Shown: positions 1 through 40,693 of the stretch, one piece after another
Layout: every line of letters begins with the position of its first letter
How positions within the stretch are numbered: position 1 is the stretch's first letter
Assembly: GCA_014382365.1 (NCBI GenBank)
Contig: JACNJW010000040.1
Location: forward strand, 15,589 to 79,588
Length of the DNA stretch: 64,000 nucleotides
DNA from: SAR324 cluster bacterium
GTDB lineage: Bacteria; SAR324; NAC60-12
Reading direction: 5' to 3'
The notes under the pieces: generated by a model
The model's input: only the letters and a program-made list of their open reading frames with translations
Database searches by the model: none
Told to the model about the DNA's origin: nothing
Translations under genes and position numbers: made by a program

Positions 1-211
1 GTATATTTCCTTCAAACCATGTCTCAGCAATTTCCTCCTGTAGCCATGGATGAAGCTTCCGTTCAACATTTGCAGTAAACACATAACGTACTGCAGTAGT
101 TTGCAGGCTCAGTGGTTTTTCTTCAGCAGCAATTCCAGCAGGCAATAATATTATTGTTATGCATGCATGCAAAAAAAGCACATTCAAAATTTTTGTGATT
201 AAATTAGTCAT
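1..211 (-). CDS. Partial CDS (N-terminal ~70 aa; the gene continues beyond the window start) encoding a secreted hypothetical protein. Translation is MTNLITKILNVLFLHACITIILLPAGIAAEE..., a signal-peptide-like N-terminus. It is the last visible member of the minus-strand array downstream of the 722-aa OMP gene.
   Basis: Manual reverse-complement translation of 1-211 gives an ATG at 209-211 (minus) and an open frame to the window edge with no stops. The start is 6 nt downstream of the upstream gene's stop, and the N-terminus is hydrophobic. The ORF track omits it because it is truncated. Confidence 0.4.
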   Translation of the reverse strand, partial: MTNLITKILNVLFLHACITIILLPAGIAAEEKPLSLQTTAVRYVFTANVERKLHPWLQEEIAETWFEGNI

Positions 212-217
212 AATGCT

Positions 218-2296
218 CTAAAAAAATATACCAAATCCTAATAATACTCGTGTAAGATTTTTTGCACTGGACCAGCGCTCATTAACTGTTGAACGCTGAT
301 TCGGATTTACGGGAATACTAGACTCCTGATAACTGTCTTTATAATAAAAATAAATTGTTGGCTGCAGTGCAAATTGAAAGTAGTAATTTTCCAGGCCCTG
401 CCAACCAGCATCAAGAACTGCAAACAGTCCGTATGCTTTTGCTGAATGCAGATAATCTGTAGCTGTTGAATTAAAGTCCTCCGACTCACCGGAAATGCTG
501 GCAGTTGCACTGGCATCTTTCCCCTGATACTTCAAAGTTGCATAACCGAGACCACCTCCTGCTCCGTAATAAAAACCCTCTGTAATTCCCCAGACAATCG
601 ACTCATCGACAAACCAGCGGTAAGTTGCTGATAATATTGACCGGTTGATTTCCAACGAGTTTCCGGATCCACTTTTTGCAATACTTTGCATTGCAGTACT
701 CTCTTCAGTCAAACGAAGTGCCTTAAAAGTATTGCCAATCTGCGGCCCTGTCAGTTCAAGAGCATAATGTAATTGCACATTATGATCTAGATTATAATCA
801 TAAAAAGTAACAAGACCATTCAATCCCGAAAATGATAGTCCTATTCCAAGTCCACGATACTCAGAAATACGCCAGTCGGAGGCCTTCCGGATTTTATCAG
901 CTTTTGATTCTGCCGTTTTCAGACTGATATCAAGATTGTCTGTTTTTTCTGCAGTGGATAAAACCTGTTTATTATATTGTTCAATAGAAAAATTTTCTAA
1001 GCCTGCTTTTATCTTACTTTTAATTATTTTCTTCTTCTTTTTCCCACCCGGATCCTGTATTGAAACACTTGCTATAGGCCCCTTTAATCTACGCTCTGCA
1101 TCATCCTGAAACCAGAATTTTTGTTGTGTGAAAACCAAAAAGTGACTTGCATCTGGAGGTATCACTGTACTTTCAGGAAACTTATAACTTAATTTCCGGC
1201 CTGCTTCACCTGCAGACTTTACCTGCAGGTCCTGATCCATTTTTGATAATGTTGAAACTTGAATTTCTTTTTCAGTCAATCCATCTCTAAATTTATTAAT
1301 TTCAAACTGAGTAATTGCTGCAACACTTTCCAAACGAGATAATTCATCTTTACCCCAAAAAAATAAATAATGACTGGAATCCGATTCTTCTTCAGGTCTG
1401 ATAAAAGAGATAGTACCAGCAATCATCCCTAAATCAGCAGGTTCTTTTTTAAAGAACATATTTTGTGTCTGCTCCTGTTCATGCTGTATTTCACTCTCAA
1501 GTTCTGTTGAAACTCCTTGACTCATTTGTCCTTCTGCATTTCTACTGAAGACAAGCAGATGAGTTGCTTCCGGAGGTAACAACATGTCTATTTCATGCTG
1601 CAATGGGGTTAACTGCCAGGGTGCTTGAAGTTGAGTACTCAGACTGCTGAACCAGTAACGCTTTTCAATCACTAATACCGGAGAATGTGCCCTTAAAACG
1701 GTGTCATTGCTACTGCCCCAGTATACAGTATAATGACTCACATCACGCTCATCCCAGGCACGTGTAATTTTAATTACACCCTTAACACGGTTGCCTTCTT
1801 TTGCAGTTTGTTCAAAAACAATAGCCTGGGGTTTACTCTGGGGTACTCCTTTATCAACCAGACTAAGACTGTATTTTTCCGTCTCTTCTCCATTTTGATA
1901 ACGGACATAAAGCAAAAAGTGAGTAGCACCTTGAGGAATTCTAGTATCTTTAAACTGAATTTTCATCCGGCTTCCAGACTCAGCTACAGGCAAAACTACA
2001 ATTGGCAGGAACATACCCAGGCGCTGATGGGGATTATTTCCCCAATACAAAACATATTTTTCTACTTGTTCAGATTTTTTTGCAGAAACAATCTCATCTG
2101 TAACTGTAAAAATCAAATCACCTCTGAGCCAACCTCCTCTTGAATCGTTGTCAGAAAATTCCAAAACTCCATTTACAGCTGCAGCTACAACTCCGTGAAA
2201 AAACACTAGCACAAACAGCAGGATTATTTTTATTTTCCAGGAAAGTACTGTTCTACGTTCCCGCTTTCTCCTATGATCAGGAGCAGTGAAAAACAT
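218..2296 (-). CDS. Outer-membrane beta-barrel protein (~693 aa from Met31; the ORF-track start at 2386 gives 722 aa). The signal peptide is MFFTAPDHRRKRERRTVLSWKIKIILLFVLVFFHGVVAAA. Three tandem ~95-aa beta-rich modules share the signature sHY-V-YWG ... P-ATHhLVF. A poly-Lys linker (GGKKKKKIIKSKIK) follows, then a ~270-aa C-terminal domain with alternating hydrophobic residues that ends ...LLGFGIFF (terminal Phe).
   Basis: ORF 218..2386 (-). The internal Met at 2294-2296 gives a canonical signal peptide and removes the 86-nt overlap with the giant-gene stop at 2301-2303. A C-terminal aromatic or Phe residue is the classical OMP beta-barrel signature. The repeated modules were seen by self-comparison of the translation. 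It is co-directional and contiguous with the giant gene. Confidence 0.7.
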   Translation of the reverse strand: MFFTAPDHRRKRERRTVLSWKIKIILLFVLVFFHGVVAAAVNGVLEFSDNDSRGGWLRGDLIFTVTDEIVSAKKSEQVEKYVLYWGNNPHQRLGMFLPIVVLPVAESGSRMKIQFKDTRIPQGATHFLLYVRYQNGEETEKYSLSLVDKGVPQSKPQAIVFEQTAKEGNRVKGVIKITRAWDERDVSHYTVYWGSSNDTVLRAHSPVLVIEKRYWFSSLSTQLQAPWQLTPLQHEIDMLLPPEATHLLVFSRNAEGQMSQGVSTELESEIQHEQEQTQNMFFKKEPADLGMIAGTISFIRPEEESDSSHYLFFWGKDELSRLESVAAITQFEINKFRDGLTEKEIQVSTLSKMDQDLQVKSAGEAGRKLSYKFPESTVIPPDASHFLVFTQQKFWFQDDAERRLKGPIASVSIQDPGGKKKKKIIKSKIKAGLENFSIEQYNKQVLSTAEKTDNLDISLKTAESKADKIRKASDWRISEYRGLGIGLSFSGLNGLVTFYDYNLDHNVQLHYALELTGPQIGNTFKALRLTEESTAMQSIAKSGSGNSLEINRSILSATYRWFVDESIVWGITEGFYYGAGGGLGYATLKYQGKDASATASISGESEDFNSTATDYLHSAKAYGLFAVLDAGWQGLENYYFQFALQPTIYFYYKDSYQESSIPVNPNQRSTVNERWSSAKNLTRVLLGFGIFF

Positions 2297-2300
2297 AGTT

Positions 2301-5300
2301 CTAAAATGCAGGAGGTTCTGCAAACGAAAGACTAGTCGGGACTCCGCTGATGCTGAGGCGCACCCAATAGCCCTGACCTTTCTCAACAGAACTGAACGTA
2401 CTGTAGCCTTTTGTAGTCAATTCCAGAGCAACTGATGTTTTTGGAGAATATGCCAGCCACTTGCTGCTCGCATCATCCCATTTCCAAATAGAGTGAACCC
2501 GGTCATACGATCCAGAATAGTCAAAAGTTGAAGATGTTGAATCACCCTGCGGCGGTGCACATGCTACAACCAGCGTTATCAATGCTGCAATTGGAATCAA
2601 TTGCCAGACAGGAATCCTATGCAGCTTATGTTGTGCAAGAGAGGTGCTTTTAAGCTGTACTTGTCTACGGTACACCATCAAACTAACCGAAGTTAACAGC
2701 AGCACAACCAGCAAAAGCATAGTTCTGGAATTTTGCCCGAGTTCATTTGCCGCAACTAGATAATCATTACCAACATAATTTAATCCGGACGGCGGCCCAT
2801 TTCCTCCGGAATTATCTAAAAGTCCCAAAGTATTGGATTCATCTTCTGACGTTTGATCAAAATTTGCGGCCTGTGTTATTTCTGCAACAGAAATCTTTTT
2901 TGCAGTTCCGGCCAAATTCCATTCTGAGTTCATGCTGCTCAATTGTGGTAAAGCAGTATAGCCTCCATAATTTGCAACTTCGAAATTTGCGGGATTGACC
3001 GGTGAATTCAGTTCAATCCAAAATCCTTCTCCGGCCTCAATCGTTGAGTTTAATTCAGTATAACCTTTGTCTGTATAAACAGTTTTGTTATCACTGCTGG
3101 TATAAAACTGCCATGCACCACTCCGGCGCACCCAGACAGCTTTGTAAGAACTGAATTGACTTTCAAAACTGGCAGGAGCTATTGATGTATAAGCCGGTAG
3201 CGAAACCAGATTACGGGAACCGCTCATTGTTATTGAAGCAGGAATGCTGCTGACAGATACAGTTCCGCTCAGAGCAGATGGAAGTGCATCACCAATCCTC
3301 AGTTCTGCAGTTCCTGAAGTTAAGCTCACATTAGTTGTATTGTCATAAGCGTTTTCCAGCACGAGAGTTGCTCCAGAAGATGCCGACTGGACATAAACCG
3401 GTTTTCCTGATGTTGTGTCAACACCAATCCACTGTCCGCTTGTCGCATATTCAGAAGATACACCACTACGTTGAGATGTCCGGAGTGAAAAACTACGTTT
3501 GGAGATATTTCGCGAACTGCCAGAAGTTGTCAACGGAATAGTTACAACCAGTTTTCCGGATTCCTGACTGACAGTTCCGCCGGCACCTACTCCAGGAAAA
3601 ATCTGCTTTGCATTCGTTGAAACAGTGGTAATTGTCGGTATCATCAAACCTTCACTATTCATACTCACACTGCTGCTCATACTGGAACTTGGTGCAAATG
3701 TAGAAGTTATATTACGGTTTTTGCTAAGTAAAATTGTCGAACCAGTTGCTGCCTGAAGGGTGCTCTCGGAAACACCTGTACCCTGCACTTGAATTGCATT
3801 ATTTGTACTGCTGGTGGTACTTATGATGGTACGGCTCACGCCGTCATTACCTGTTTCTGCAGAGGAAGTGCTGACAACTTTTCCGCTCTTGATCTGCAAA
3901 TCCATACTGGTTGAGGATGTGAATGTAGTTTTGCTTGCACCGCTGTCAAAACTTGTCGATGAGGTGCCGTCGTTCAAAAGACTGGCTGCAAGAGTTCCTT
4001 CCGTAACCGACATGCTGGCGGCAACTCCGCTGCTGGTATCAATTGCGACTGTCAAACCTGCATCTGTACTTATACTTGACTTACTAGACTCTGAACTGTC
4101 TGCATTTGTTGTCCTGCCAGTACCTCCGCTCAGTGTTATCTCAGTTAAAGTAGAACCGTCCGGACTGAGCGTACTGACAACCTGAGAAGTTACACCACTG
4201 GTAGCGTCAGTAGATGCAGGCAGAGAGATGCTTGAAGTACCGTCACTTCCGATACTAACTTCAGAGCCCTTGGGCGCTTTGACATTTGCACCTGTACTTC
4301 CGGAGCTAACACCGACTGTCATTTCTCCTTCTGTGCTGATGTTGGTTGACAAAGTCGCACCGCTGTTCAGAGTCATTGCAACACTAACTGATGCATCTTT
4401 ATTCATATTAACTTCTGCACCAAGCGGTACATTGACTTTAGATTCAGTACCGTCCTTAGTTTTAATTTTACTGACAACAGTACCGTCTGTATTCATATCT
4501 AGATTCAATTCAGTTGTTCCTGTGGCCAATTTAAGTGTTTTTGAACCATCTGAATTTGTGGTTTCTGCATCCAGTGTTATATCTTTTGGATATTTCGGTT
4601 TTATTGAACCCACAGCACTTCCTATTGCTGTAACTTCCTTGACCGGTACAATCGTAACTGAAGTTGAACCATAAGATGCGGTTTTATCATCATCGATCAC
4701 TTCCAGTCCAAATAAAATAACAGTTGTATCCTCAATATCCGGAGCAGAAAAATATGCAATACTCTCGTTTTCACGTTTTACTGTAACATCTGTACGCTGA
4801 CCTACATATTTCCACTTGTAAGAAACAATACGTCCGGTTGGATCAGGGTCATAAGAAGCAGAACCATCCAGAATTACTCTTGTCTGTTCATTAACTTTTT
4901 GATCAGCACCTATTTGCACTATTGGACTCAAACCTTTTTGCAGATCATCGTTGATGTTAGTAAAAGTATATTTGAAAGCATGCTGTCTACTATCTGAAGT
5001 TGAGGAATAATTCGTGTCCGTTGATTCCGTATAGCCTACTATTCGTACTCTGACGTCATCATCTACAACTGAATCATCTTCACCGGTAATTATCAGAGTT
5101 TGAGTCTTGTTCCATGTACTTGGACTAAAAGACATTGTGTATTTGTCAAGGGTAGCTTCTGATAAATCAGAACTGTTCAAAACAACCTGCACATCACTGA
5201 CAGGACGGCTGAGTAGTTTAACCGACATAGTCGCCGTTTTTCGTTCGCCTTCAGACTCGGAAAGCATCCAGTTGGCACTGACAACGTTTCTGTACAGACC

Positions 5301-8300
5301 ATGTGCATTAAATCCATATGCACCGGTTTCTGTGAATCCGCTACAATTATCTTCACAATCAACTCCGCCGGCAGTACTGATAGTGCCTACTGTTCCAGTG
5401 GTGGTGGATAATGTAATATAAGAAATTTTGCTGTTATCAGTCATACTCAAATTAGGTTCACCATCAATTTCAAGCAACGCGATTTCGTTTCCATCAACTG
5501 AAGTCAACAGTGTATTATCAAGCATCATCAAAGCATTTCCGCTGAATTTTGATGTTTGAGCATGTGCTAGTTTAAGCGTACCACCGGTGCTGGTCAGTAT
5601 TCCATCACTAATGCTTAAAGCACTCAACAGTATCAAGTCCGCATCAGCAGTAGAAATTCCTTCTAAACTTGAATCGATGATGACAGCATTTTCCACTGTA
5701 AGGTCACTGGTTGCACTTCCCAATGTCAAAGTGAAATCATTCAGATTTAAATTTACAAAATTTGAGGCTTCATCACTGGTCAAGGTACTGCTGGCTGCAA
5801 GTTTCAAATCAGTTTGTGAAATAGTAAGAACTCCACTCGATTTGATAAAATCAGCACCTAGAACCCAGGTGCTTCCACTAAGATCCAATTTACCTGTTCC
5901 TGAAAGCTGACCTCCACCCAATGTAGAAATGTCTCCTCCTGTAGATGTTATGCCACCATCACTGATGTTCAGTGCAGCAAGGAAACTTATGTCGGCATCT
6001 CCTGAAATCAACCACTCGTCGGCATTGTCGAAAGTCATTGCAGATGTTACAGACAAATCTGTACTTGCTGAACCTAGAGTCAATGTCAAATCATTCAGTT
6101 GCAGCTGGTTAAAAGCAAGTGCTGTATCACTGCTTAAAGCTATACTATTCAACAAATTCAGCATTGCAGATGAACCGTCAAAATTACCACCGCTTTTCGT
6201 ATAATCTGCACTGAGACTGAGAGTACTTGCTCCTAAGTCAAATTCAAATGTTCCGGACTGAGTACCTCCATTGCGGAAAAGCAGTGTGCCTCCAGTTGAG
6301 CTTAATTTCCCATCTGCAAGTGTCACATTACCCTCAACAGTCAAATCTGCATCTCCTGTCTTCAATAATCCATTTGCTGTTGTTAAAGCCAAGTTTCCAC
6401 TGAGAGTTAAATCACTTGATTCCGAACCCAGTGTGAGCGTATTTGCACCTAACTCAATTGTATTAACGGAAAGTAAGTTGTTGTTGGTTATTTTTAAACT
6501 ACTGAGTACTGTTAAAGATGAATCTGAGGTTTCCAGAGTTCCACCTGTTTTAAACAAATCTGCATTTAAATTCAGCAAACTATTGCTGATATTCAACAAC
6601 CCTCCAGTTTGAGATACTCCACCATTAAATATTAAGGTGCCCCCTGTTGAGTCAAGCCCTCCGTTAGCTACACTCAGTAATCCTTGAAGCTTCAAATCTG
6701 CTGAATTTGTACGTATTTGCTCATCTGCAGAATCCAATGTTGTTGGATCACTAACCGTCAAATCAGTTGTCTCAGAGCCGAGTGTAAGTGTTTTATCATT
6801 CAAAGTAAGTGTTTTCACTGAAAGAGATGTATTGCTCGTAAACGTAAGTCTCTCAGTTAATTCCAGCGTTGTTCCAGCTTCAGTTGCAGTCAGAGTTCCG
6901 GCTGATTTAAGAAAATCTGCACCCAGTTTAAATGTACTGTCTGTCAGATCCAGACTTCCTCCGGATTGCTCTCCACCTTTTGCAAATGAAATAATTCCTT
7001 TAGTTGAAGAAATAAGTCCATCCTGCATGACAAAACCACCCTGCAGGTTTAAATCTGCAGGACCTGTTACGAGTTGTGCATTTGAATCATCAAACGTAAT
7101 GTTATCTGAAACAGTCAAATCACTACTTTCAGTCAGCAAAGTTAGGAGCTTGTTATTTAATACAAGCGATTGTGTCTCAACTGCTGTATCGCTTGAATAA
7201 TTTGTATTTTCACTCAAACTCCAGGAAACATTGTCGAGTGACATTGCACCACCTGTTTTTGTCAAAGCCCCTTGAGTTTCCCATTGATTATTCTCAAATA
7301 CCAGAGTAGCACCTGCATCAACTTTTATTTGCGCATTATTCCATTTGCTACTGGAGGACTGAAATGTTACAGATTCTTGTGCATCCAGCAAATTGTTTTC
7401 AGAATAATCAAAATTTCCGCTGACTTTTGTTCCTGCAGAATTTAATACAAATTGACTTTCATCTTCAAATGTTACAGTTCCGCCAAAAGTCAACTGACCG
7501 CTGTCTCCGGATACTGTCAGCACTTTTTGGCTGGGTACTGAAAAAGAGTTCGGCGTATTTAGCTCAGTCAATACAGACAATTCAAGATTTATATTACCTT
7601 TTTGATCAAGTTGCTCTACTACTATTTTTGCAGAGCTTTGCAATATACTGTCGTCTCCTTCACAGCTAGAATCTGCACTCACATCAACAACCAACACTTT
7701 GTCGTTTTCTACAAGGCCATCACTTGGATCAATGCCAAGATGTGAGAGTGTAGTTGCATCATCTGCAAGTTTTAGAATTCCGCCATCCTTATTCAGGCGG
7801 ATTGAATTATTATCCCAACTCGAAAAACGTCCTCCACCCTGCAAGGCGAGACTCAGGTCATTAACTTCGAGTGGGATACTACCCTCATAAGTCAAAACTT
7901 TATCCGGTGCAATAAAAATTGTGGAATTAGTAAGATGTTGAATTTTGCCGTTAATTGTAACGTTTTCAGTGACGCACATTACTCCGCCGTTTAAATTAAT
8001 GTTGGCAGTCATTGACCTGTTGAAATTCATGGTCCCGCTTACATTAAAAGTCAGTCCTCCTCCAACATCGAAAACGGTGCTGCCAGTCATTACTATTTGA
8101 TCTTTAAAATTGATATCTATCTCGTTCTCAACCTTCACATTTACATCCTGCAGCGTTAAAATGACGTCGTTCGGCTGAGTCACTTCTGTTACCAAGAGCC
8201 AGCCTCCGTTGCCGTCACCCATTATTTTTGCAGTAGAATAGACGTTTAAATTTTCAACATTCAGTTCAAACGACTCGTTAGTGAAGCTCAAACCCACGTC

Positions 8301-11300
8301 TGCCAATAAGTTCAGATTGGTAATTTTTGCATTAGCACTTTCAACACGTATTCCCTTTCCAGCCGTACTGTTTGCAGTTACTTCAATGAGAGCGATTGTA
8401 ATGTCATCTGCAAAAACCAGCAAACTGTCTGTACTACTGAGCAGAATCGAATTCGAATTCAATAAAGTTCCGCTTCCCAGCAATGTCAGTTGAAAAGTTG
8501 TGATGTCAATACTGAGACCTGAGTACTCCAGATTCACTCCCTGTGCTACATCTACAGAAGAATTACCGGAAATTAGAATGTCTGAAGCAATTTTAGTTTT
8601 GTAGTCCACATCCAGTAAACTTCCTTCTATCAATTCAAGTTTGCCATTTATCATGTTGTGATACGGCGTACCGGAACTGATAGTAGGAGCACTGAATTGA
8701 AGTGTGCCTGCCAGTTTCAGCGTGTCAGTTATACTGAGAGTACCGCCGTCTGAACCAAGAATTTCCAGTTTGTGGTCCTGCGGGATTTCAAATGTTTTTG
8801 TCAGACTTAATTGTTTGCCGTTGGCCAAATCCATGCTTGCATTGTCGGCAAGTGAAAGTTGAGTTGAAATCGTTACGTTTTCATCTACATCCAACAGACC
8901 ATTGTTGAAAATCAGTGTGCCGTTATTAAGCGTATTGTTGGTTGCATTCAGTTTCAGTGTCCCAGAAAGTGTCAGCTTATCGCTGATGTTAAGAATTCCA
9001 CCACCGGAACCTTGTAATTCCAACACCTTATTCATTGGAACTTCTACGCTGTCTGTCAGCGTTAAACTAATTGAGTTAGCAATATCTATTCTTGTTGATT
9101 TTACTGGCGATATTGTATTGATGGTAACGTTTTGTATCACATCAATAGATCCTTCAATCAAGTCTTCCGCAACAGCAACTTTTTCAACTTTCGCTATTCC
9201 ATCAAGTTTCAAGACACTTGCTGCATTATTAAGAGACAGCTCAGTTGAATTATTGAAACTCCCTCCTCCTGACATTGTCAAAGTGAGTGCACCGATTTCT
9301 AAATCACTTCCGAAATAACTCAGTATTTTGTCCGCGGAAACATCTATCGTGGAATTTAATAGATGTGTAATGTCTGAAGAAACTGTTGTGTTTTCAGAAC
9401 TTGTCAATGTACCTCCGTTCAGGGCCAGAGTTCCGTTATCTAGAGAAGAATCAGGTGCGTTAAACTTAATTTCACCTGACAAAGTCAACGTATCGCTTAT
9501 GCCCAGCGAGCCACTGCCGGAACCAATCAGTTCCATGGTTGTTGCTTCCGGAATCTCAAAAGTATTCTCTAAGGTCAAGCGGACTCCAGAAGCAATGTCC
9601 AGACGGGAGGAAACGTTTTGCGTTAAAGTCTCGATAAGTGAGTCACCAGTCACACTCAATTTTCCAGTTGACAATTCTTCAGGAAAAGAGACCCTGGAGA
9701 CTTCAACTCCATTCAACACCAGAACGCTGAGAGGGTCATCAAGAGCAATATCTTTTATGTTTTCGATCTTACCTTCTCCGGATAGAGTTAAGGCTAATGC
9801 GCCCACATTTGGAGAGTCTCCGGTATATTTCAGAGTTTTGTCAGCAAACACACTAATCGCTGAATCCATCAAATGAGTAATCTTAGAGTTGATAATTGCA
9901 TTCTCAGAAATTGACAGAGTTCCACCGTTGAGCGCTAATGTACCGTCAGACAAAGTATCTGGAGCACTGAATTTAAGTATTCCGGAAAGAGTCAGTTGAT
10001 CTCCCAAAACCAGGGTTCCATTATCAGCACCAACAAGCTCCATTGATTTATTTTGTGGTACTTCAAACAAATTCTGCACAGTCAGCGTGGTATCATTTGA
10101 GATATCAAAGCGTGAAGAACCTGTGTGCGACAGAGTCTGAATGAGAGTGTCATTGTCAACACTGAGCATTCCACTGGTTAATTCTCCGGTCACTGCAACT
10201 TTTGAAATTTGATTGATTCCTTTCAAGACCAATTGACTCGATGCATCATTCAAAGTGATTGCATTTTCATTTGTTATGGTTCCGCTTCCGGAAAGTGTCA
10301 GTGTAAAGGCACCTATTTTAGGTGTGTTTCCGGAATATGTTAATGTTTTGTCTGCAGCCACTGCAATGCTGCTGCTGCTCAACTGAGTTATTGTTGCTGC
10401 GATATTTGTATTCTCTAACACATCTAGCAGACCACCGTTAAGTCCAAGAACTCCGCTGGTGAGCGAATAACCGGCTGAACTTATTTTAAGATTTCCGGAA
10501 AGTTTAAGTGCATCAGGCAAATATATTGTCCTTCCTGCTCCGGAACCCAATAGTTCCATGAATTTTCCTGCTGGAATTTCAAACGGATTTGTCAGAGTCA
10601 GGTTATTTCCTTCATCAAGCTCAATACTGAACGATGCAGATTGTGTCAGTGAATCGATTGTAGAGTTTTCAGCAACATTTATCACCCCATCACTCAACTC
10701 AGTTTTAACAGCAACTTTTGAAATTTTGATTCCATCCAACTGGAGTTTGCTTTGAGCATGATTGAGACTGAGATTATTTGTATTATTGAAAGTCCCGCCG
10801 CCTGAAAATATTAATTTAAAGGCTTCAAGATTAAATTCCTGACCTGTGTAATTTATCGATTTACCCGTAGCAATTTCAATTGTAGCATTTGCACTATGAA
10901 CCATATTTGATTCGATTGTCAGATTTTCATCTACATCAAATTTTCCCCCACTCAGGAAAACCGTGCCGCCGCTTAAGACTCCGGATACGGGAAACTTAAG
11001 CGTGCCGCTGAGAGTCAAATTATCACCAATAGCAAGGGTTCCACCTGCACCGACAAACTGCATGACCTTTGTTTGAGGGATTTCAAAACCATTGGAAATA
11101 CTCAGGGTTTTTCCTGATAAAATATCTACAACTGATGATCCTGAATGCAGCAGGTTTTGGACTCCTGCATTATTTACAACCTCAAGTTTTCCCGTAGTGA
11201 GTGTAAGCGGAACCGAAACATTTGCGACAGCAGATATTCCATCCAACTTCAGGATGCTTACCGGATCATCTAAAACCAGCTGATCCTGATTGGCAAAAGT

Positions 11301-14300
11301 ACCTCCGCCGGAAAGAGTCAAAGTTTTTGCTCCAATTTTAAAATCACCACCGGAATGCGTTAAGGTTGCACCGGAAGAAATATTAACTGTAGAATCTGCA
11401 TTGTGAGTAATTATGGCTGAGATTGCAACGTCATCATTCACGCTTAATTTACCACCGTTGAGAACAATTGTCCCGTTGTCAAGTGTCTGTGGGACTGCAA
11501 ATTCCATGGTTCCGGAAACAGTTAGTGTATCCTCCAATTCCAGCACACCATTACTACCGGTTAAATTCATCTTTCTCTCAGCCGGCACTGACAAATCACC
11601 CTGAAGAGTCAAACGTTTACCGGAGGCAATCTCAAACGTTGATGCTGCAGGATGTGTGATTGAAGAGGAGATTGTTGAATCTTTTTTGACAGAAACAATT
11701 CCACTATCAAAGGCCAGTGTTCCGCCTTCAAGCCTACTCTCTTCATCCATTTGCAGTGTCCCGTTCAGAGTAAGTGTATTTTCCAGCTTCAAGCTGCCAC
11801 CAGAACCATTGAGCAGCATTGTTTTGTTACTGCTCACACTGAAATCTTCCTTGATGCTTAGGGTCTTTCCGGATGAAATATTAATTATCGATTCACCTGT
11901 ATGCGTGAGACTTTGAATTAACGTATTTTCTGAAACATTCAATTTGCCCGTCTGCAGTGACACAGGAAAAGAAACTTTGCTGACTTCTGTAATTCCAGCC
12001 AGGTTCAAAACACTGGCTACGTCATTGAATTTCAAATCTGCGCTATTGGCGAATTTACCTCCGCCGGATAGTGTAAGTGCAAACCCGCCGATATCCATTG
12101 CGCTGCCGGAATAAGTCAGAACTTTCCCGCTGGAGACATTAACTTCGGAACTAGCTTTGTGCAGCAATGTCGATAAAATGCCTGCATTTTCAACAACCTC
12201 TAGAGTACCTCCGCTGAGTGACAACGTACCGTCCTTGACAGTATCGGCTGCACTCACTTTCAGAGTGCCTTTAAGCGTCAACTTTTCATTCAAACTCAAA
12301 GTTCCGCCTCCGGATCCAGATAATTCCAGCGACTTCGCTTGTGGAATTTCTAAAGCATTTTTTAGCATCAATGTCTTTGCATTGGCAATCTCAATCATTG
12401 AAGAACCGGAATGAGACAAGGATTCTATAATCGAGTCCTGAACAATTTCCAGTTTGCCTGATGTTAAAACTGCTGAGACTGAAACTTTATTAACTTTTGC
12501 AATTCCATTAAATTTCAAAGAACTTGAAGGATCATTGAGTGTTATATTTGTTGTATTCGCAAAATTTCCACTGCCGGAAAGTATCAGCGTTTGTGCTCCA
12601 AGATTAAATTCATTTCCGGAATAATTTAGTGTTTTTCCGTCTGCCACTACAATGCTGGAATCCGCTTGCTGAGCCAGATCAGAGATAAAGTTTATGTCTT
12701 CATAAACTTGCAATGTCCCACCATTGAGAGTCACGGTTCCGCCAGACAAAGTCGTGTTTGCTATTGGTAAATTAAGCGTACCGGAAAGTGTCATGTTATC
12801 ACCCAGCGTCAGAGTCCCGGCTGCACCTGAAATCTTCAGTTCTTTTTCAGTCGGAACTTCAAAAGCCTCAGTAATACTCAATGTTTTGCCACTCACATAA
12901 TTTATTTCTGAAAATCCTGTGTGTGCTAAATTGTTGATGACACCACTACCAGTCATTTTTAAAACTGGTGCATTTAAGTTGTCTCCTGAGCTTGTTTTCA
13001 CGTGGCTGACAGTAGAGGCTCCTGCACCGGAAAACTCAAGTCCTCCATCGGCGTTATTTAAGGTTAATGGGTTGCTGCCGTCAGTGTTTAACAGCAGAGA
13101 CCCGCCGCCGGATATGGACAATATGCTGTCATTTAAGTTAAGTGCCGCTCCTTCATATGTTAAGCTGGCTCCATCAACTATCTTAAGATTGGATGACGCA
13201 TTTAATGAGATCGAAGAAGAACTGCTGATTGTCATATCACCGTCAATCCGTAAAGTTCCACCGTTCAAGACAATATTACCTTCAAGCCAACCGTCAATAC
13301 AGAACTCACCGCCTGTATTTATACTTACACCGCCGGGAAGTTTTAATTGTCCTTTAGGTTCAACCGGTAGAGATTGTGGACAGGAAATTCCGACAGAAAT
13401 AAGTTCATCAACCTTGAGTTTTGTTGTACTGCCCAATGTCAGCATTGGTTGAACATTTTCCGCAATCGTTACATTTGCTATCAACTGTTCTGCATTGGTG
13501 GTCAAAGTGGAGTCCCTAAGCAAATGGAAATTAGTAGTTACATCTGTCTGCAATACTCCTCCAGTTAAATTGAAATCTCCCCCTAAATTCAACAAAACCC
13601 CTTTTGCGTCAACCGTCAAACTTCCCGAAGTAAGTATCACATCTCCATTTAGAGTGAAGTTTTCATTTAGTTCCAGCATTCCTGAGCCTGACAATTCCAT
13701 ACCCTGTGTTGGTACAGTCAGGGACTCGGTGATACTAAAAGTTTTTTCGGAAGCAACAGAAAGTCTAAGCTTTTCTGTCAAATTCAAATTGCTCAGAGTA
13801 GCATCTGAAATCACGTCCAACCCTTTGTTTGAGCCACTGGCTGCTGAAACTGAGACATAACCGACAACCACATTATCCAGCACCAAATGGCTGTTTGAGT
13901 TATTCAGGCTCAAGGCAGAGGCAGCAGTATTAATGAAATTTCCGCCACCCTGAATATTCAGTTTTGAAGTGCTGAGATCAACGGTTGTTCCCGAGTAAGT
14001 CAGGGTTTGTGATGAATTGATATTTATTGTTGAATCTGCACTTTGTACCAGATTATCAACTAGAACTGTACTTTGTTCTATCGACAAATTACCGCCGTTC
14101 AAGGCAATATCACCCGAAATTTGCTGACCTTGCCCAACCAACGCACTGCCGGGTTCCAGGTTTAATCCTCCTGCAAAATCAAAAGATCCACCACCGTTAC
14201 TGAGTTTTTGTGTGTTGTCGACTGTTACAGGACTCGTTACTCGAACAGTAACATTTTCTGTTCCCAGACTTAATTCAGCTCCGCCTGTCAAAGCAAGAGT

Positions 14301-17300
14301 TCCGCTGTTGACATCCTTATTACTCGAAAAAGTCAGTGCTGCTGCTGCCGTAATATTTCCAAGTGCTACAGGTGTATCTGAGGTTACGGAAAAGCTGTCA
14401 CTGAGGTAGAGGTTCTCCACAATGTTTCCTGTAGCGGAAACATCACTGTCAGTAATGTTCAATCCGACTGCTGTAGCAGCCGTACTGACTGAGAGGAGAG
14501 AAATTATAGTACTATCACTTATCGAGAGCTTACTGCCTGAATCATCCAGTTCCAGCTTGCTCGTGTTGGCAAAAGTACCTCCGCCTGAAAGCTTAAACTC
14601 ATGATCACCAACACCAATTTCACTACCGGAATATGTAAGTGTTTTTCCAGATGCAATTGTTAATTCAATACCTTTATGATCTACAGCCTGCAGCAAAGAT
14701 CCTGAAAAAGTCAGGGATTGTTGCACATCCAACTTGCCTCCAACAGTTCCGGCACCGAATGCATCACCCTTCATTGTGACATTTGCGGCCAAAGTTCCAC
14801 TGTTATTGAGTTGAAGATTTCCATTTGAAAATACTTCAATTTCGCCGCTAAGACTCTGATTTTCTGAAATTGAAACCGGAATGAGATGACCAACTGTTAA
14901 TTCATTCACTGTTGATTCGTTTTCTACAACAAGACCAAGGCTGTCAGCGCTCGTTCTGACATAGTTTGCGGTAACTGCTGATAATTTAAGTTGACTTGCT
15001 GCATTGTCTAATTCAAGCGGATTGGTGTTACTGTAACTTCCTCCGCCACCAATACTTAAGGCAAAAGGGCCTACCTTGATAGTTGCACCTTCGTAGGTCA
15101 GCGTTTTCGTTTCTGCAATTTCGATAGTAGATGCAGCCAGATGTTCGATTGATGAATTAAGTGTCGTGCTGCTTTCAATGGCCAGCAAACCACCGTTAAG
15201 TTTTATTTTGGCTGTTCCAGTATCGAGATCTTTAGTCAGCCGTAAAACTGCACCGGAATCAATACTGACTCCGCCAGTCAGTATCAGGGACGTTGAGTCC
15301 TGCACAATACGTCCGTTGGGATTATTAAGAGTTAATTCCTCACTCAACGTAAATGAACTCGACTGACCAGCAAGCGATAGCACATTATTATTCAGCGTGA
15401 CCGCTTTAAAAGAAAGTGCTGAATCGCTGGAGAAGGTCACATCGTCAGTCAACTCCAGGGAGGAATTACTGCTTGTTAAGCTACCTCCTGTTTTAGTTAA
15501 GTTTCCACCAGTTTGAATTGCAGCAGCATCAACTGTTAACTCACCTCCGGACTGACCGAATGTACCAACCAAAATTAGTGTAGATCCGCTACTCAGTGAA
15601 ATTAACCCATTTGCTGAAAGTGAACTTCCGCCGCTAAGAGTTAGTGTCCCACCGGACGCATAGACTTTTGCAGTGCTGAATTCTGCAGCACCCGTCCATG
15701 TCAAATCAGCCTCCTGAATTTTAAAAGTTCCTGCGGATTCGCCTTCAGTCGGAGCTGAGTTATTGATGGTTAAGTCTGTCGTAGCAGAACCTAGAGTCAG
15801 TGAATTTCCTGCCAAATTTACTGAACCAAGCGTAAACAGCGAATCTCTACTGATAGTTGTATCTGCAGTTAATTTCAGCACAGTACCATTGCTTGTTGCT
15901 ACATCATCCAGCGTCAAACTACCTGCCGTTTCCAATCTTCCATTTGACAGGTTTAACCAGTTTGCACCACTCAAGCCAGTACTGCCGTTGGTTTGCAGTA
16001 AACCGCTAAACACCAGATTTGCAGTTTGCAAAGCAAGTGTTGAGTTTTTGCTGTTCACAGTTCCGGAAACTGAACCGCCTTTTTGAAAAGTCAGCCTTCC
16101 GCCGGAAGGTTCAAGGATTCCAGCAATAGTCGCAGTTTCAGCAAAGCTCAAATCTGCGCCACTCATTTGCAGAGTCGAACCATTGTTTAAAGTGAATGCT
16201 TTTTTAAGTGTGAGATCTGCGCCTTCTGTTGCTGTGACTGTCAGGTTCCGGTTATTCATTTCCAGAGTTCCAAAACTTAACGCCCTGTTACTGCTAATAG
16301 TCACGTCGTTGATTAGATTCAACTCAGAAGTTTCTGCAAGAGTTAATGTTCCGCCAGTAATGCTGATGTTATCACTTAATTTGAGCTCCCCGCCTTGAAT
16401 ATCAATTGTACCTGCTGAACCCAAGTTAACTGTTGAGCCGAAAGAGATGACGCCGCTTTGTGAGGACAGCTTTCCTGCAACAAGTTCCAGCTGGTTGTTC
16501 AGCGTTAAGTCTGATGCTCCAGTCAGTAGTTGTTCTCCGGAAGCATCGAGAGTAAATGGATCATTGATGGTTGTTGCCATTGTAATGCTCAACGCAGAAC
16601 CGTTGAGGTCAAGTGTGCCAAATTTAGTGGCAAGTGAGTTGCCAAGAGTCGAATCTGTCTGCAAAGTCAAAGAGGTGGCATCATCTGTAACTGTACCACC
16701 GAGATCCAAATCTCCACCTAAAATTAGTTTTCCGCCGGAAAGATTAAGTTCACGTGTGTTACGCGAAATCGTGCTTCCTGCGTCTGTGGACAATGTTCCG
16801 GCAATTGCTAAATTACTCCGCAGCGCCAGTTCCGTTCCAGGAAGTGAAATTTCAGAAGTGCTGTCAACTGAACCACCCAGTTTCAGCGTACCACCAGTAG
16901 AATCAAGTACAGAGTTCGCAGCAAGTGTGAGTGTTCCCTGCAGATTTAAATCTGCATCACCGGTATGTAAAGTTACAGCACTGAGGTTGAGTGGATCAAG
17001 CAGCTTCAAGTCTGAGGTTGAGCTGCCGAGGCTAAGTATTTTCCCGTTGTGCTCTAAAGCCTTAAACGTTTTTTCTCCATTGAAAGTCAGAATCACATCA
17101 TCCAACAAATCCAGTATAGAAGTATCATTTGTGGTCAGTGTTCCACTATCAGCAGCAAGATCCGCATTCAATTTCAGTGTGGTTCCACTTACATCAAGTG
17201 TTGCGTTTGTTCCCAGTGTACCACCTTGTGTAAGTGTGAAAGTTCCTCCGCTTGAAGTTATTTTTCCGGCATTCAGCTCCAAAGGATAGGGCAGACTTAA

Positions 17301-30925: not shown

Positions 30926-32608
30926 TTATTCAACCACAGAGTTTTGTAATGAACCAGTCCATTGCATCAAGTTTGAAGACAGATTATCTCCAACTGAAAC
31001 GTTGTCTGACCTCACAATTGAATTATTTTCAACCTGAATAAAAAATACTGCCTGCGGATTATTTGCTTCAGTGGTTGCAGGATTACTGTCATTTTTAAAA
31101 TTATAAGGACCATAAGTTATATTGTCGGTTATTCCAGGACCAGTCAAAACTAGTTTAAAATTCTGTACATCTGTCTCGCTGACATCTTCTACATAAACCA
31201 GATAAGTTCCATTGCCGACTTTTTGACTGTCTGTAGCCCAGACTTGAACCTCAGTATCAGAGGAACTGCTGCCGTCCTGCAACTGAACTACATCTCCAGT
31301 TTCAGAATATTTTTTGTTGGCTGCATTACTGTAAACCCAGTAACGCGAACCCCTGGTAGTATTATCAAAACTTCCATTTGTAGTTTCTTCATTGTATGTC
31401 CAATCCGGAAAATAGTATGAGTGCAGATCCGGATCCAGTCCATCTGTCCAACTGAGTGTAAAACACATGGTACTGTTGTCAACACAGGCATCATAGTTAA
31501 CTGTGCCAATTGTCTGTGTTTTTGAAACTTCATTAACCGTAAGAATCACTTGAAGTTCATTTGAACCGTGAACTAAAGGCAGGGATGAGGCTGTTGTAAA
31601 TTGAGTTGTGTAAGTCACATTATCCGAACCTTCAGTATTAGACCAACTGGAAAGAGCAATTGGTGGTGTAACATCTACAAGTGTACTGGCTCCAACCCGT
31701 TTTACCTGCATTAAGGATAATATCTGGGTTACATTGTCTTTTTGGGCAATCGGTACATTTAACACAAGTGTCCCGCTTGCAGTCGCATATGCAGATGTTC
31801 CCACTTGAGAAATGCTCATACTTTCAAAACTCAACCAATCAATATCTACATAATTCGGTGTTAATTTTACATCCAGAGTCTCTGTGGAACTGCTGACCAG
31901 AAACGTCTGATTTAAGGGAATAAATCCCTGCAAATCAACATCATAACTATATGAGTTATAAACAACATTTGAAAACACTATCGACTTACTGGCATTGTCC
32001 TCAGAACTAATCGTGAATGAACTGTTGTCAATGAGAATACCTGCAGTAGAATTAAGCTTGGCAGTACCTGTACTTCCGGGCAGCATTCCGGCACTGCTTG
32101 TGCTGCTGATTTTGAATGTAACAGTTGAATATTTTGTAGTCCAAAATTCAACAGCAACTGTTTTGGAGATAGTTTCCGAATCAATCGTAAAAATACCTGA
32201 TTCACCATATCCTCCAGGTGTAATAGTACCTGCACCCAATTCGTTCAAAGCATAAGTTTCACTAAAAAAGTAGAGGCAGAGTTTAATTTTTGTATCCAGC
32301 GGCACAACAAATTGAGCATCATAAGTATTAATGTCAACCAACGACCTGCTGTATTCAACTCCGGAATTTGCAGTAGTAGACTCACATTGAACTGCCGGTA
32401 TCAAAACTGCTAAAATTGTTTTGGCATCGCTGCTGGTCAAACTTTCTGCATACTGCGAACGACTCATTTTTCTATCTGATACGTCATCCATCCGAATCTG
32501 CAACGAAGCATAGCCGTTCGTCTCTGTTTCTACTTCTGCACAGGACACTGCAAGTACAAAAAGCAACAGCATAATAACAAAGATGTTAAGGTTGGTAGTC
32601 CGCATCAT
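30926..32608 (-). CDS. Secreted (probable lipo)protein, 560 aa, hypothetical. The signal peptide plus lipobox-like segment is LAVSC-AEVETE. A C-terminal PPC-like beta-sandwich module is present (DPDLHSYYFPDW...GNGTYLVYVEDVSETDVQNFKLVLTG). It lies immediately upstream of the giant gene.
   Basis: ORF 30926..32608 (-). N-terminal MMRTTNLNIFVIMLLLFVLAVSCAEV fits the Prosite lipobox pattern. The PPC-like motifs were recognised by eye. There is no enzymatic signature. Confidence 0.65.
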   Translation of the reverse strand: MMRTTNLNIFVIMLLLFVLAVSCAEVETETNGYASLQIRMDDVSDRKMSRSQYAESLTSSDAKTILAVLIPAVQCESTTANSGVEYSRSLVDINTYDAQFVVPLDTKIKLCLYFFSETYALNELGAGTITPGGYGESGIFTIDSETISKTVAVEFWTTKYSTVTFKISSTSSAGMLPGSTGTAKLNSTAGILIDNSSFTISSEDNASKSIVFSNVVYNSYSYDVDLQGFIPLNQTFLVSSSTETLDVKLTPNYVDIDWLSFESMSISQVGTSAYATASGTLVLNVPIAQKDNVTQILSLMQVKRVGASTLVDVTPPIALSSWSNTEGSDNVTYTTQFTTASSLPLVHGSNELQVILTVNEVSKTQTIGTVNYDACVDNSTMCFTLSWTDGLDPDLHSYYFPDWTYNEETTNGSFDNTTRGSRYWVYSNAANKKYSETGDVVQLQDGSSSSDTEVQVWATDSQKVGNGTYLVYVEDVSETDVQNFKLVLTGPGITDNITYGPYNFKNDSNPATTEANNPQAVFFIQVENNSIVRSDNVSVGDNLSSNLMQWTGSLQNSVVE

Positions 32609-32713
32609 CTTAACTAGTGCAGGATTGTGGTATCATCATTCACACTCATATTAACTTAAAACTAAACTTGTAAAACTTTTTTCATTTAATTATTGCCATC
32701 AATTGCAGAAATG

Positions 32714-34977: not shown

Positions 34978-34985
34978 AGTTTGCC

Positions 34986-36557: not shown

Positions 36558-36645
36558 CTTTTCTTCTTCAACGAGTCACGGTTTTCTATAAATTATTTAT
36601 GTCAACAGTTAGCAAATTATACTGAGTACCATAAACTTTAATACA

Positions 36646-40685: not shown

Positions 40686-40693
40686 ATACATAA

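What the first reader, a model, noticed from the sequence alone, without database searches (positions are those of the whole stretch)
218..2386. OM beta-barrel gene with three N-terminal sHY-V-YWG / P-ATHhLVF repeat modules, ambiguous start overlapping the giant-gene stop
The longest ORF starts at 2386, 86 nt inside the giant gene's 3' end. An in-frame Met at 2294-2296 gives a textbook signal peptide and removes the overlap. That start lies only about 8 nt after the giant gene's stop, which suggests tight coupling with the giant protein's synthesis.

The three ~95-aa modules share conserved aromatic motifs (EKYVLYWGNNP / SHYTVYWGSSN / SHYLFFWGKDE, and ATHFLLYV / ATHLLVFS / ASHFLVFT). These are plausibly periplasmic or surface-exposed binding domains for the fibre. 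A poly-Lys linker and a ~270-aa barrel ending in GFGIFF follow.
Basis: seen in the sequence. Interest (0 to 1): 0.5.

Follow-up and report, generated by a model that had tools for sequence, protein, structure and literature searches.

The report
Outer-membrane partner protein of SAR324 giant gene
The gene just after a 9,479-residue giant gene in an uncultured marine SAR324 bacterium encodes an unnamed outer-membrane protein (signal peptide, three fibronectin-III-like domains, basic tether, small 8-stranded barrel) that always sits beside such giant genes and is probably their membrane docking partner.

Summary
The longest ORF is 218..2386(-) and overlaps the giant gene by 86 nt. The real start is almost certainly ATG 2296-2294, 4 nt after the giant gene's TAG. 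This gives a 692-aa protein identical to a SAR324 MAG 'hypothetical protein'. In 7 homologous loci the frame is closed upstream, so the overlapping start is not conserved.

The family is restricted to SAR324-type genomes. Wherever the upstream flank is readable it lies in the cassette giant gene -> this gene -> ~148-aa secreted protein. That cassette is linked to a MotA/MotB-like stator cluster, even in a rearranged distant locus.

Canonical barrel topology places the FN3 modules in the periplasm. The most likely role is outer-membrane docking or coupling for the giant protein. That role is inferred, not shown. It is a new variant of a known kind and of moderate interest.

The parts
2294..2296 (-). 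Most likely start codon (ATG), 4 nt downstream of the giant gene's TAG (2301-2303)
   Evidence: Sequence. The identical 692-aa NCBI protein model starts here. The equivalent ATG is conserved 5 nt after the giant stop in 10 related loci.
2297..2386 (-). Upstream in-frame extension to TTG 2386 that overlaps the giant gene's 3' end; judged not translated as part of this protein
   Evidence: The same frame is closed by stop codons upstream of the start in 7 homologous loci. This stretch encodes the conserved C-terminal domain of the giant protein in another frame.
2177..2296 (-). Sec-type signal peptide (residues 1-40): long basic n-region, 17-residue hydrophobic core, AAA|VNG cleavage-type motif
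   Evidence: Hydropathy scan and sequence. All homologues carry an equivalent hydrophobic N-terminus. No dedicated signal-peptide predictor was available.
1856..2167 (-). Module 1 (residues 44-147): FN3-like 7-stranded beta-sandwich; motifs DNDSRGGW, YVLYWGNNPHQRLG, ATHFLLY
1496..1831 (-). Module 2 (residues 156-267): FN3-like beta-sandwich with a helical insertion; motifs RAWDERDVSHYTVYWG, ATHLLVFSRN
   Evidence: It is the most conserved of the three modules.
1058..1462 (-). Module 3 (residues 279-413): FN3-like beta-sandwich with a ~30-aa low-confidence insertion (residues ~336-365); motifs SHYLFFWG, ASHFLVFT
875..1057 (-). Basic, poorly conserved tether (residues 414-474), including GGKKKKKIIKSKIK (1007-1048) and a short predicted helix
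   Evidence: pLDDT 31-52, with a helix at residues 438-450. It has 15 K+R in 60 residues. Its conservation is among the lowest in the protein.
221..874 (-). C-terminal 8-stranded outer-membrane beta-barrel (residues 475-692). It has long loops L2 (517-546) and L4 (655-682), a long polar b5-b6 hairpin (575-633), and ends in G-F-G-I-F-F
2301..30740 (-). Giant upstream gene (9479 aa, Sec signal, repetitive, one PKD domain): the constant neighbour and presumed partner
   Evidence: A long ORF ends 0-88 nt upstream of the family gene in 18 of the 21 homologous loci examined; in the other 3 (L011, L012, L015) too little upstream sequence was available to tell.
2304..2711 (-). Conserved C-terminal end of the giant protein: hydrophobic helix, basic loop, second helix ending in a lipobox-like [LIV][AV][AS]-C, then a ~95-aa domain ending AEPPAF. 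A candidate docking end
   Evidence: Alignment of 18 loci, down to cassettes of 25% identity. No NCBIfam or Pfam match.
1..211 (-). Start (ATG 211-209) of the conserved downstream small gene (~145-154 aa in homologues, with a signal peptide); it runs off the window
   Evidence: It is present directly downstream in L001-L004, L008, L009, L014, L016, L020, L022, L023 and L025. No Pfam or NCBIfam match.
30926..39140 (-). Six co-oriented upstream genes: 543-aa membrane protein (weak MgtE_N), MotA-like, MotB-like with OmpA domain, porin-like barrel, FecR-like, 560-aa lipoprotein
   Evidence: Pfam and NCBIfam. The same order, followed by the giant N-terminus, is seen in the metagenome contigs long enough to show it. 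Homologues of the 543-aa protein, MotA and MotB are again linked to the family gene in rearranged locus L072.

Best explanation
Window 218-2296(-) encodes a 692-aa Sec-exported outer-membrane protein of an unnamed, SAR324-restricted family.

Architecture (shown or predicted here): signal peptide; three divergent fibronectin-III-like beta-sandwich modules; a ~60-residue lysine-rich flexible tether; and a C-terminal 8-stranded OmpA/OprF/TtoA-like barrel with a terminal-Phe insertion signal. Translation starts at ATG 2296, 4 nt after the stop of the 9,479-aa giant gene. The two genes are therefore co-transcribed and possibly translationally coupled.

Topology (inferred). In the 8-strand assignment the long loops (30 aa, the hairpin and 28 aa) fall on one face and the short turns (4, 12 and 4 aa) on the other. 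On the canonical outer-membrane topology, both chain ends and hence the three FN3 modules are periplasmic. They would hang from the outer membrane on the basic tether. The conserved loops and the long hairpin of the barrel would face outward.

Function (inferred). The protein is the dedicated outer-membrane docking or coupling subunit for the giant cell-surface protein. The barrel and its conserved loops would hold or guide the fibre at the outer membrane. The periplasmic FN3 arm would contact periplasmic parts of the same system: the conserved C-terminal end of the giant protein, the co-encoded ~148-aa secreted protein, or the long periplasmic MotB-like stator subunit.
For: Identity and start:
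- 100% identical to a 692-aa SAR324 MAG protein.
- The ATG 4-5 nt after the giant stop is conserved.
- The upstream frame is closed in 7 loci.

Modules:
- Repeat statistics and profile cross-hits.
- The AF2 model shows three 7-stranded sandwiches.
- The same module occurs in arrays of up to 18 matched stretches in other exported proteins.

Barrel:
- AF2 strands have pLDDT 85-97.
- It ends in G-x-x-I-x-F, and the strands alternate hydrophobic and small residues.

Partnership:
- The order giant gene -> family gene -> small secreted gene is found in every homologous locus with enough flank to tell, down to 25% identity.
- The upstream six-gene MotA/MotB cluster keeps its order in the metagenome contigs long enough to show it.
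- In the distant, rearranged locus L072 a 4-module+barrel homologue still lies next to giant-like ORFs and 4.4 kb from homologues of the 543-aa protein, MotA and MotB.
- The barrel, including its long loops, is more conserved (0.74-0.84) than the modules (0.70-0.75) or the linker (0.51). It is therefore more than a passive anchor.
Against: - No experiment and no interaction prediction links this protein physically to the giant protein. Multimer prediction was not possible.
- Periplasmic placement of the modules is inferred from canonical topology only.
- Spacing to the giant stop varies from 0 to 88 nt between clades, so strict termination-reinitiation coupling is not a conserved feature.
- The giant protein contains none of these modules, so no homotypic interaction is suggested.
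- How a ~1 MDa Sec-exported protein crosses the outer membrane in this system remains unknown.
Confidence: 0.55

Rival explanations
1. Autotransporter-like surface display. The three FN3 modules are exported through or beside the C-terminal barrel and sit on the cell surface. There they would act as an adhesin stalk, or bind the giant fibre outside the cell.
For: The order N-terminal soluble domains, helical/basic linker, C-terminal barrel superficially resembles type Va autotransporters. The same module is used in large, apparently extracellular multi-domain proteins with RCC1, Lcl_C or fn3 partners.
Against: The barrel is predicted to be monomeric with 8 strands and matches OmpA, OprF, OmpW and TtoA rather than 12-stranded autotransporter barrels. 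No autotransporter or Omp85 Pfam or NCBIfam match was found at E<=10. The distribution of long loops and short turns places the N-terminus of strand 1 on the periplasmic side.
Confidence: 0.12
2. Secretion-pore subunit. Several copies of the barrel assemble into the outer-membrane channel through which the giant protein is exported, with the FN3 modules acting as periplasmic substrate-recruiting domains. This would be functionally like the POTRA domains of TpsB in two-partner secretion.
For: The gene is adjacent and co-oriented with a Sec-dependent giant exoprotein, as tpsB is with tpsA. The barrel loops are conserved. No other obvious translocon was identified apart from a porin-like 416-aa barrel upstream.
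Against: An 8-stranded barrel has no usable lumen. There is no POTRA domain and no Omp85-type or secretin-type match. AF2 closes the barrel as a monomer. Other barrels exist in the locus.
Confidence: 0.1
3. Unrelated housekeeping outer-membrane protein that merely happens to lie downstream of the giant gene.
For: Small 8-stranded barrels are common general OM proteins. Standalone barrels of the same sequence family, 234-303 aa, exist without modules.
Against: Gene order is conserved from 100% down to 25% identity, with 0-88 nt spacing. Linkage to the giant-like and MotAB-like genes persists after rearrangement in L072.
Confidence: 0.04
4. Translation starts at TTG 2386 inside the giant gene, giving a 722-aa protein whose hydrophobic segment is internal rather than a cleavable signal peptide.
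For: It is the longest ORF. The frame is also open upstream in the closest relatives.
Against: The frame is closed in 7 loci. The overlapped DNA encodes the conserved C-terminal domain of the giant protein in another frame. The extension would place about 53 residues in front of the hydrophobic core. Database gene models use the ATG.
Confidence: 0.03

Closest known systems
Eight-stranded outer-membrane barrels: OmpA and OprF N-terminal domains, Thermus TtoA, OmpW, NspA, PagL
   Different: There is no sequence-level match to any Pfam, NCBIfam or PDB entry. The domain order is inverted relative to OmpA and OprF: the soluble domains are N-terminal and are FN3-like, not a C-terminal peptidoglycan-binding OmpA_C domain. 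The barrel has its own conserved motifs (WR..E.RGLG, GWQG.ENYY, IP.NPNQRS..RW).
SprF/PorP-like barrels paired with type-B-CTD giant adhesins (SprB) in Bacteroidota gliding and T9SS
   Same: A dedicated OM beta-barrel gene lies immediately downstream of a giant adhesin gene. SprF binds SprB and anchors it at the surface (PMC9143113). SprF is coupled through its periplasmic tail to a track driven by proton-motive-force motors (PMC12635249). Here a MotA/MotB-like pair is conserved in the same locus.
   Different: There is no homology: no PorP/SprF or T9SS family match, and the organism belongs to a different phylum. The mature protein has no cysteines, so SprF-type disulfide coupling is excluded. 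The giant protein's C-terminal end has no recognised CTD. The resemblance lies in gene organisation only.
Two-partner secretion (TpsB/TpsA, type Vb)
   Same: An OM barrel protein with N-terminal periplasmic domains is encoded next to a very large, repetitive, Sec-dependent exoprotein.
   Different: TpsB has POTRA domains and a 16-stranded Omp85 barrel. Here the domains are FN3-like and the barrel has 8 strands, and there is no Omp85 or POTRA match.
Fibronectin type III domains (Pfam fn3, PF00041) in bacterial extracytoplasmic proteins
   Different: This protein gives no fn3 hit even at E<=10. The motif set (DNDSRGG, WGNNPHQRLG, ATH.LV) defines a separate, unannotated subfamily. The full-length profile, which also includes the barrel, matches 591 clusters at 50% identity, most of them through the modules.

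Membership tests
Sec (SPase I) signal peptide | Basic n-region, 10-20 residue hydrophobic core, small residues at -3/-1 | tested here: met
   Eight K/R in residues 9-23. The core is residues 24-40, with Kyte-Doolittle mean up to 3.15, followed by A-A-A|V. Judged by inspection only; no SignalP-type predictor was available. Homologues share the feature.
OmpA-like / small OM beta-barrel families (Pfam OmpA_membrane, OMP_b-brl and relatives) | Significant match to the family HMM | tested here: not met
   No Pfam or NCBIfam family at E<=10. No PDB sequence match at E<=10 with the family profile.
OmpA-like / small OM beta-barrel families (fold level) | Closed 8-stranded antiparallel barrel, with long loops on one side, short turns on the other, and a C-terminal aromatic insertion signal | tested here: met
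OmpA family (full-length OmpA/OprF/MotB type) | C-terminal peptidoglycan-binding OmpA_C domain (PF00691) | tested here: not met
   Absent from this protein. It is present in the neighbouring MotB-like protein.
Fibronectin type III (PF00041) | Significant match to the fn3 HMM | tested here: not met
   No hit at E<=10. Only summed sub-threshold signal appears in large arrays of the same module in other proteins.
Fibronectin type III (fold level) | 7-stranded A-B-E / C-C'-F-G type sandwich of about 90-100 residues | tested here: met
Classical autotransporter (type Va) | C-terminal 12-stranded barrel with a pore-spanning helix (PF03797) | tested here: not met
   No HMM match. The barrel matches 8-stranded proteins.
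TpsB / Omp85 transporters (type Vb) | POTRA domains plus a 16-stranded barrel | tested here: not met
   No HMM match. The N-terminal domains have the FN3 fold and the barrel has 8 strands.
PorP/SprF family (T9SS type-B cargo anchors) | Match to the PorP_SprF HMM | tested here: not met
   No Pfam or NCBIfam hit.
PorP/SprF family (T9SS type-B cargo anchors) | Encoded next to its cognate giant or CTD cargo and physically bound to it | tested here: inconclusive
   Adjacency is met in every homologous locus with enough flank to tell. Binding cannot be tested with these tools.
Zorya (ZorAB) defence system, considered for the neighbouring MotAB-like genes | ZorA and ZorB plus ZorC/D-type partners | tested here: not met
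   Only the generic OmpA-like part of the MotB-like protein hits ZorB models. There is no ZorA hit and no other PADLOC hit in the locus.

The most novel reading that the evidence does not exclude
The FN3x3-barrel protein is the outer-membrane coupling element of a previously undescribed envelope machine in SAR324. In this reading, proton-motive force is harvested by the co-conserved MotA/MotB-like stator, together with the MgtE_N/FliG-like membrane protein, the FecR-like protein, a second barrel and a lipoprotein. The force is transmitted across the periplasm to the FN3 arm and used to export, tension or move a ~1 MDa surface fibre. This would be a non-homologous analogue of the SprB-SprF-GldLM gliding/T9SS principle outside the Bacteroidota.
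Probability: 0.12. Interest if true: 0.85.

Novelty: new variant of a known kind. Interest (0 to 1): 0.45.

Why it matters
SAR324 is one of the most abundant uncultured bacterial lineages of the dark ocean (my own knowledge). Its largest gene, about 28 kb, has no known export or anchoring route.

This work shows that the giant gene has a fixed, unannotated outer-membrane partner of defined architecture. It also shows that both sit in a conserved locus with a MotAB-like stator. Together these define a concrete gene set for a new cell-surface system and give testable parts: topology of the FN3 arm, binding to the giant protein's conserved C-terminal end, and dependence on proton-motive force.

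It also delineates two sequence families absent from Pfam and NCBIfam:
- an FN3-like module, which accounts for most of the 591 clusters at 50% identity matched by the full-length profile;
- a small outer-membrane barrel.

Finally, it settles a gene-start ambiguity that would otherwise hide the signal peptide.

Tried and rejected
Searches that found nothing:
- Pfam and NCBIfam scans of the protein at E<=10.
- A profile search against all PDB sequences at E<=10.
- PADLOC on the protein and its upstream neighbours. The only hits were generic OmpA-domain matches of the MotB-like protein to ZorB, so Zorya was rejected.
- An NCBIfam scan of the giant protein's C-terminal end for known sorting signals such as PEP-CTERM or MYXO-CTERM.
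- Literature searches for SAR324 giant proteins or adhesins, and for strain TL4.

Ideas tested and rejected:
- The giant protein might carry the same modules or barrel (homotypic binding). It does not; nor does any other ORF in the window.
- Absence of a Shine-Dalgarno motif might indicate translational coupling. Almost no gene in the window has such a motif, so it is uninformative.
- The TTG 2386 start.
- Autotransporter and TpsB membership.

Other points:
- Pfam 'hits' in module-array relatives (DnaT, Methyltransf_16, Aha1_N and others) have no individually significant stretch and were treated as spurious sums over repeats.
- An off-by-one frame error was corrected.

Full report
**1. Observation**

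The window's first 2.4 kb on the minus strand holds an ORF, 218..2386 (722 aa, TTG start). It lies directly after a 9,479-aa ORF, 2301..30740. The giant gene ends with TAG at 2303-2301. An in-frame ATG sits at 2296-2294, which leaves 4 nt between the two genes. The TTG start would overlap the giant gene by 86 nt.

From the ATG the product is 692 aa. It is 100% identical over its full length to a protein that NCBI annotates as 'hypothetical protein [SAR324 cluster bacterium]'.

The three modules are related beyond chance:
- Local alignment scores are z = 9.5, 5.4 and 10.9 above 300 shuffles, and no shuffle reached the observed score.
- HMMs built from each module across homologues detect the other two modules, with i-Evalues from 4e-7 to 1e-2.
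- Those HMMs detect nothing else among 367 six-frame ORFs of the window, including the giant protein.

**2. The start codon**

The genome-collection scan returned 23 loci from SAR324-type MAGs and relatives, and earlier contig look-ups added L001-L004. The junction with the upstream gene was compared in 21 of these.

- In the window and 10 loci, an ATG lies 4-5 nt after the giant gene's stop and opens the same MFFTAP-type N-terminus.
- In other clades the start is 0 nt (GTG), 32, 53 or 88 nt after the stop.
- In L001, L003, L014, L017, L022, L023 and L025 the target frame is closed by a stop codon upstream of the start. An N-terminal extension into the giant gene is therefore impossible there.
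- The overlapped DNA encodes, in the giant gene's frame, a C-terminal domain conserved in all cassettes.

The 2386 start is therefore an accident of an open frame.

From ATG 2296 the protein begins with a basic n-region, a 17-residue hydrophobic core and AAA|VNG. This looks like a Sec signal peptide by inspection; no predictor was available.

In L001 the ATG at +5 is retained but opens only a 7-codon mini-ORF, which ends 3 nt before the real ATG. In L003 the homologous DNA is frameshifted. The long n-region is therefore dispensable.

Close spacing supports co-transcription and allows termination-reinitiation. The spacing is not conserved across clades, however. The lack of a Shine-Dalgarno motif says nothing, because almost no gene in the window has one.

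**3. What the protein is**

No Pfam or NCBIfam family matches at E<=10. A family profile finds no PDB sequence at E<=10.

*The modules.* AlphaFold2 with a 32-sequence alignment (mean pLDDT 70.5) predicts residues 38-432 as three 7-stranded beta-sandwiches. Module 2 carries a helical insertion and module 3 a ~30-residue disordered insertion.
- Foldseek's best matches are tandem FnIII arrays.
- The 'HY.V.WG' motif lies on the strand equivalent to C, and 'ATH.LVF' on the strand equivalent to F.

I combined the DSSP string with the sequence pattern to assign the strands:

| Element | Residues |
|---|---|
| b1 | 481-489 |
| b2 | 494-502 |
| b3 | 507-516 |
| Loop L2 | 517-546 |
| b4 | 547-562 |
| Turn T2 | 563-574 |
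| b5 | 575-602 |
| b6 | 605-633 |
| b7 | 638-654 |
| Loop L4 (with a helix) | 655-682 |
| b8 | 683-691 |
| C-terminal residue | F692 |

Strands b5 and b6 form a long, polar, protruding hairpin. Its tip is deleted in the most distant homologues. The chain ends G-F-G-I-F-F, which fits the G-x-x-hydrophobic-x-aromatic insertion signal (that consensus is from my own knowledge).

The barrel domain is thus about 218 aa, not ~270.

**4. Family and distribution**

Word-indexed and exhaustive searches find about 55 full-length homologues at 37-69% identity, and a few at 25-30%. All come from marine metagenomes or from MAGs labelled SAR324, 'Lambdaproteobacteria' or 'Deltaproteobacteria'.

The two domains also occur separately.
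- The full-length profile reaches 591 clusters at 50% identity (E<=1e-3). Most are tandem arrays of the module, with up to 18 matched stretches in a 3,650-aa protein. The modules are combined with RCC1 propellers, Pvc16_N, Lcl_C or genuine fn3 domains. These proteins come from SAR324, Silvanigrellaceae, Myxococcota and Spirochaetia.
- The barrel also occurs alone in 234-303-aa proteins that share its motifs (WR..GLG, FYDYNL, GWQG..YYF, IP....HR, GFGWFF) and have no Pfam match.

In the full-length family the barrel, including loops L2 and L4, is the most conserved part (majority fraction 0.74-0.84). The modules score 0.70-0.75, and the linkers and signal peptide about 0.47-0.51.

**5. Genomic context**

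Of the 21 homologous loci examined at this junction, 18 show a long ORF ending 0-88 nt upstream of the family gene. These ORFs are truncated by the contig or the flank and run from at least 697 aa to at least 3,323 aa. In the other three (L011, L012, L015) too little upstream sequence was available to tell. A ~145-154-aa gene with a signal peptide follows within a few nucleotides wherever it was looked for. This holds down to 25% identity (L025).

The giant proteins share a conserved C-terminal end:
- SGGNGPPSG;
- a hydrophobic helix;
- a basic loop;
- a second helix ending in a lipobox-like [LIV][AV][AS]-C;
- a ~95-aa domain ending AEPPAF.

Upstream of the giant gene the window carries six co-oriented genes:
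- a 543-aa membrane protein with a weak MgtE_N match;
- a MotA-like protein;
- a MotB-like protein with plug and OmpA domains and a ~300-aa insert;
- a porin-like barrel ending in F;
- a FecR-like protein;
- a 560-aa lipoprotein.

The same order, followed by the giant N-terminus, recurs in the metagenome contigs long enough to show it.

In the distant genome 'Deltaproteobacteria bacterium TL4', a 762-aa homologue with four modules plus the barrel (30% identity) directly follows two giant-like ORFs. It lies 4.4 kb upstream of homologues of the 543-aa protein, MotA (44% identity) and MotB (35% identity), so the same genes appear in a different order. Linkage that survives rearrangement argues for one functional system.

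**6. Mechanism**

Shown or predicted from the sequence: a signal peptide, three FN3-like domains, a basic tether, an 8-stranded barrel, and operon-like linkage.

Inferred:
- The long loops and the hairpin lie on one face of the barrel and the short turns on the other. The standard outer-membrane topology then puts both chain ends in the periplasm.
- The FN3 arm would hang into the periplasm. Three domains of about 4 nm each plus a ~60-residue tether are long enough to approach the inner membrane (lengths from my own knowledge).
- The conserved loops and hairpin would face outward.

I therefore propose that the protein is the dedicated outer-membrane docking or coupling subunit of the giant surface protein. 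The barrel side would engage the fibre at the surface. The FN3 arm would engage periplasmic components: the giant protein's C-terminal domain, the small secreted protein or the MotB-like subunit.

I put about 0.9 confidence on the architecture and start site, and about 0.4 on this specific role.

Rivals:
- Surface-displayed modules in autotransporter style. This is disfavoured by the 8-stranded barrel.
- An oligomeric export pore. This is disfavoured for the same reason, and because the model closes as a monomer.
- An unrelated housekeeping outer-membrane protein. This is disfavoured by the conserved synteny.
- The TTG 2386 start. This is disfavoured by the comparative evidence.

**7. Comparison with known systems**

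At fold level the parts are ordinary (OmpA-like barrel, FN3). At sequence level both are unannotated families. The combination of N-terminal FN3 x3 with a C-terminal small barrel, tied to giant genes, matches no curated family.

The nearest functional analogy is SprF/PorP with SprB in Bacteroidota. There, a barrel gene downstream of a giant adhesin gene encodes the adhesin's surface anchor (PMC9143113). That anchor is coupled in the periplasm to a track driven by proton-motive force (PMC12635249). There is no homology here, and the mature protein has no cysteine, so the coupling chemistry would have to differ. Two-partner secretion is a looser analogy.

**8. Verdict**

The functional part ('binds the fibre', 'tight coupling') is plausible but untested.

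This is a new variant of a known kind: a lineage-specific outer-membrane partner protein of a giant surface protein. Interest in the gene alone is moderate. It would be higher if the surrounding nine-gene locus proves to be a MotAB-energised surface machine.

Noticed in passing
window 2304-2711 (-), C-terminal 136 residues of the giant ORF; also L001-L025 upstream ORF ends: The giant protein ends with an unusual conserved arrangement. It runs SGGNGPPSG, a hydrophobic helix, a ~25-aa basic loop, a second helix ending in a lipobox-like [LIV][AV][AS]-Cys (LVVAC-APP in the window), then a ~95-aa domain ending AEPPAF. In some homologues a Met precedes the second helix, giving a textbook lipoprotein signal (MSSWRLVIFAAGLIMLAVAC). 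This could mean internal processing or acylation, or an in-frame fused lipoprotein. No NCBIfam or Pfam match.
   Followed up: partly
window 20611-22950 and 23941-26280: A 2,340-nt stretch inside the giant gene is duplicated 3,330 nt away at 99.2% identity (18 mismatches). It is either a very recent internal duplication or an assembly collapse or expansion of repeats.
   Followed up: partly
window 1-211 (-); full-length copies at L001 12063-12527, L002 6830-7267, L003 5314-5748: A conserved ~145-154-aa gene starts 6 nt after the barrel gene's stop. It has a signal peptide and the conserved motifs TTAVRYVFT, PW.QEE.A..WF, CH.CDNVYR and EWSKPW. It has no Pfam or NCBIfam match and is present downstream in every cassette where it was looked for.
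   Followed up: partly
window 30926-39140 (-): This is a six-gene cluster: a 543-aa membrane protein with weak MgtE_N (FliG-like) similarity, MotA-like, MotB-like with a ~300-aa periplasmic insert, a porin-like barrel, a FecR-like protein and a 560-aa lipoprotein. The same order, followed by the giant N-terminus, recurs in the metagenome contigs long enough to show it. The stator genes score well below the flagellar MotAB equivalog cut-offs, and no flagellar genes are adjacent.
   Followed up: partly
L072 (Deltaproteobacteria bacterium TL4, JBBCAX010000033.1) 238-18062: A rearranged version of the locus, in this order: giant-like ORFs, a 4-module+barrel homologue, a 346-aa barrel, a 401-aa lipoprotein, a homologue of the 543-aa protein, MotA, MotB (with a faint precomputed Calx-beta hit) and a large lipoprotein. 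The giant-like region is split into 1,014-aa and 819-aa ORFs, possibly by a frameshift or real fission.
   Followed up: partly
window 39456-41793 (+): A divergently oriented second energiser-type cluster lies next to the first: an OmpA-domain protein (409 aa), a MotA/ExbB-family protein (226 aa) and ExbD/TolR (140 aa).
   Followed up: no
whole window (30 gene starts examined): Shine-Dalgarno-like motifs are almost absent upstream of the predicted starts. At most 4-5-nt partial matches appear in about a third of genes. Gene-start prediction in this genome therefore cannot lean on ribosome-binding sites.
   Followed up: partly
L001 9966-10003; L003 3207-3265: In some clades the DNA homologous to the MFFTAP-type N-terminal extension has decayed into a 7- or 12-codon mini-ORF between the giant stop and the real start. 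In L001 the sequence reads TAA-5 nt-ATG...TGA-TGG-ATG, a possible chain of termination-reinitiation events.
   Followed up: partly
P0081 (455 aa): In one protein the barrel, in a form nearly identical to that of the P0041 group, is joined to a Cys-rich N-terminal region unrelated to the FN3 modules. It is either a domain-swapped natural variant or a chimeric metagenome assembly.
   Followed up: no
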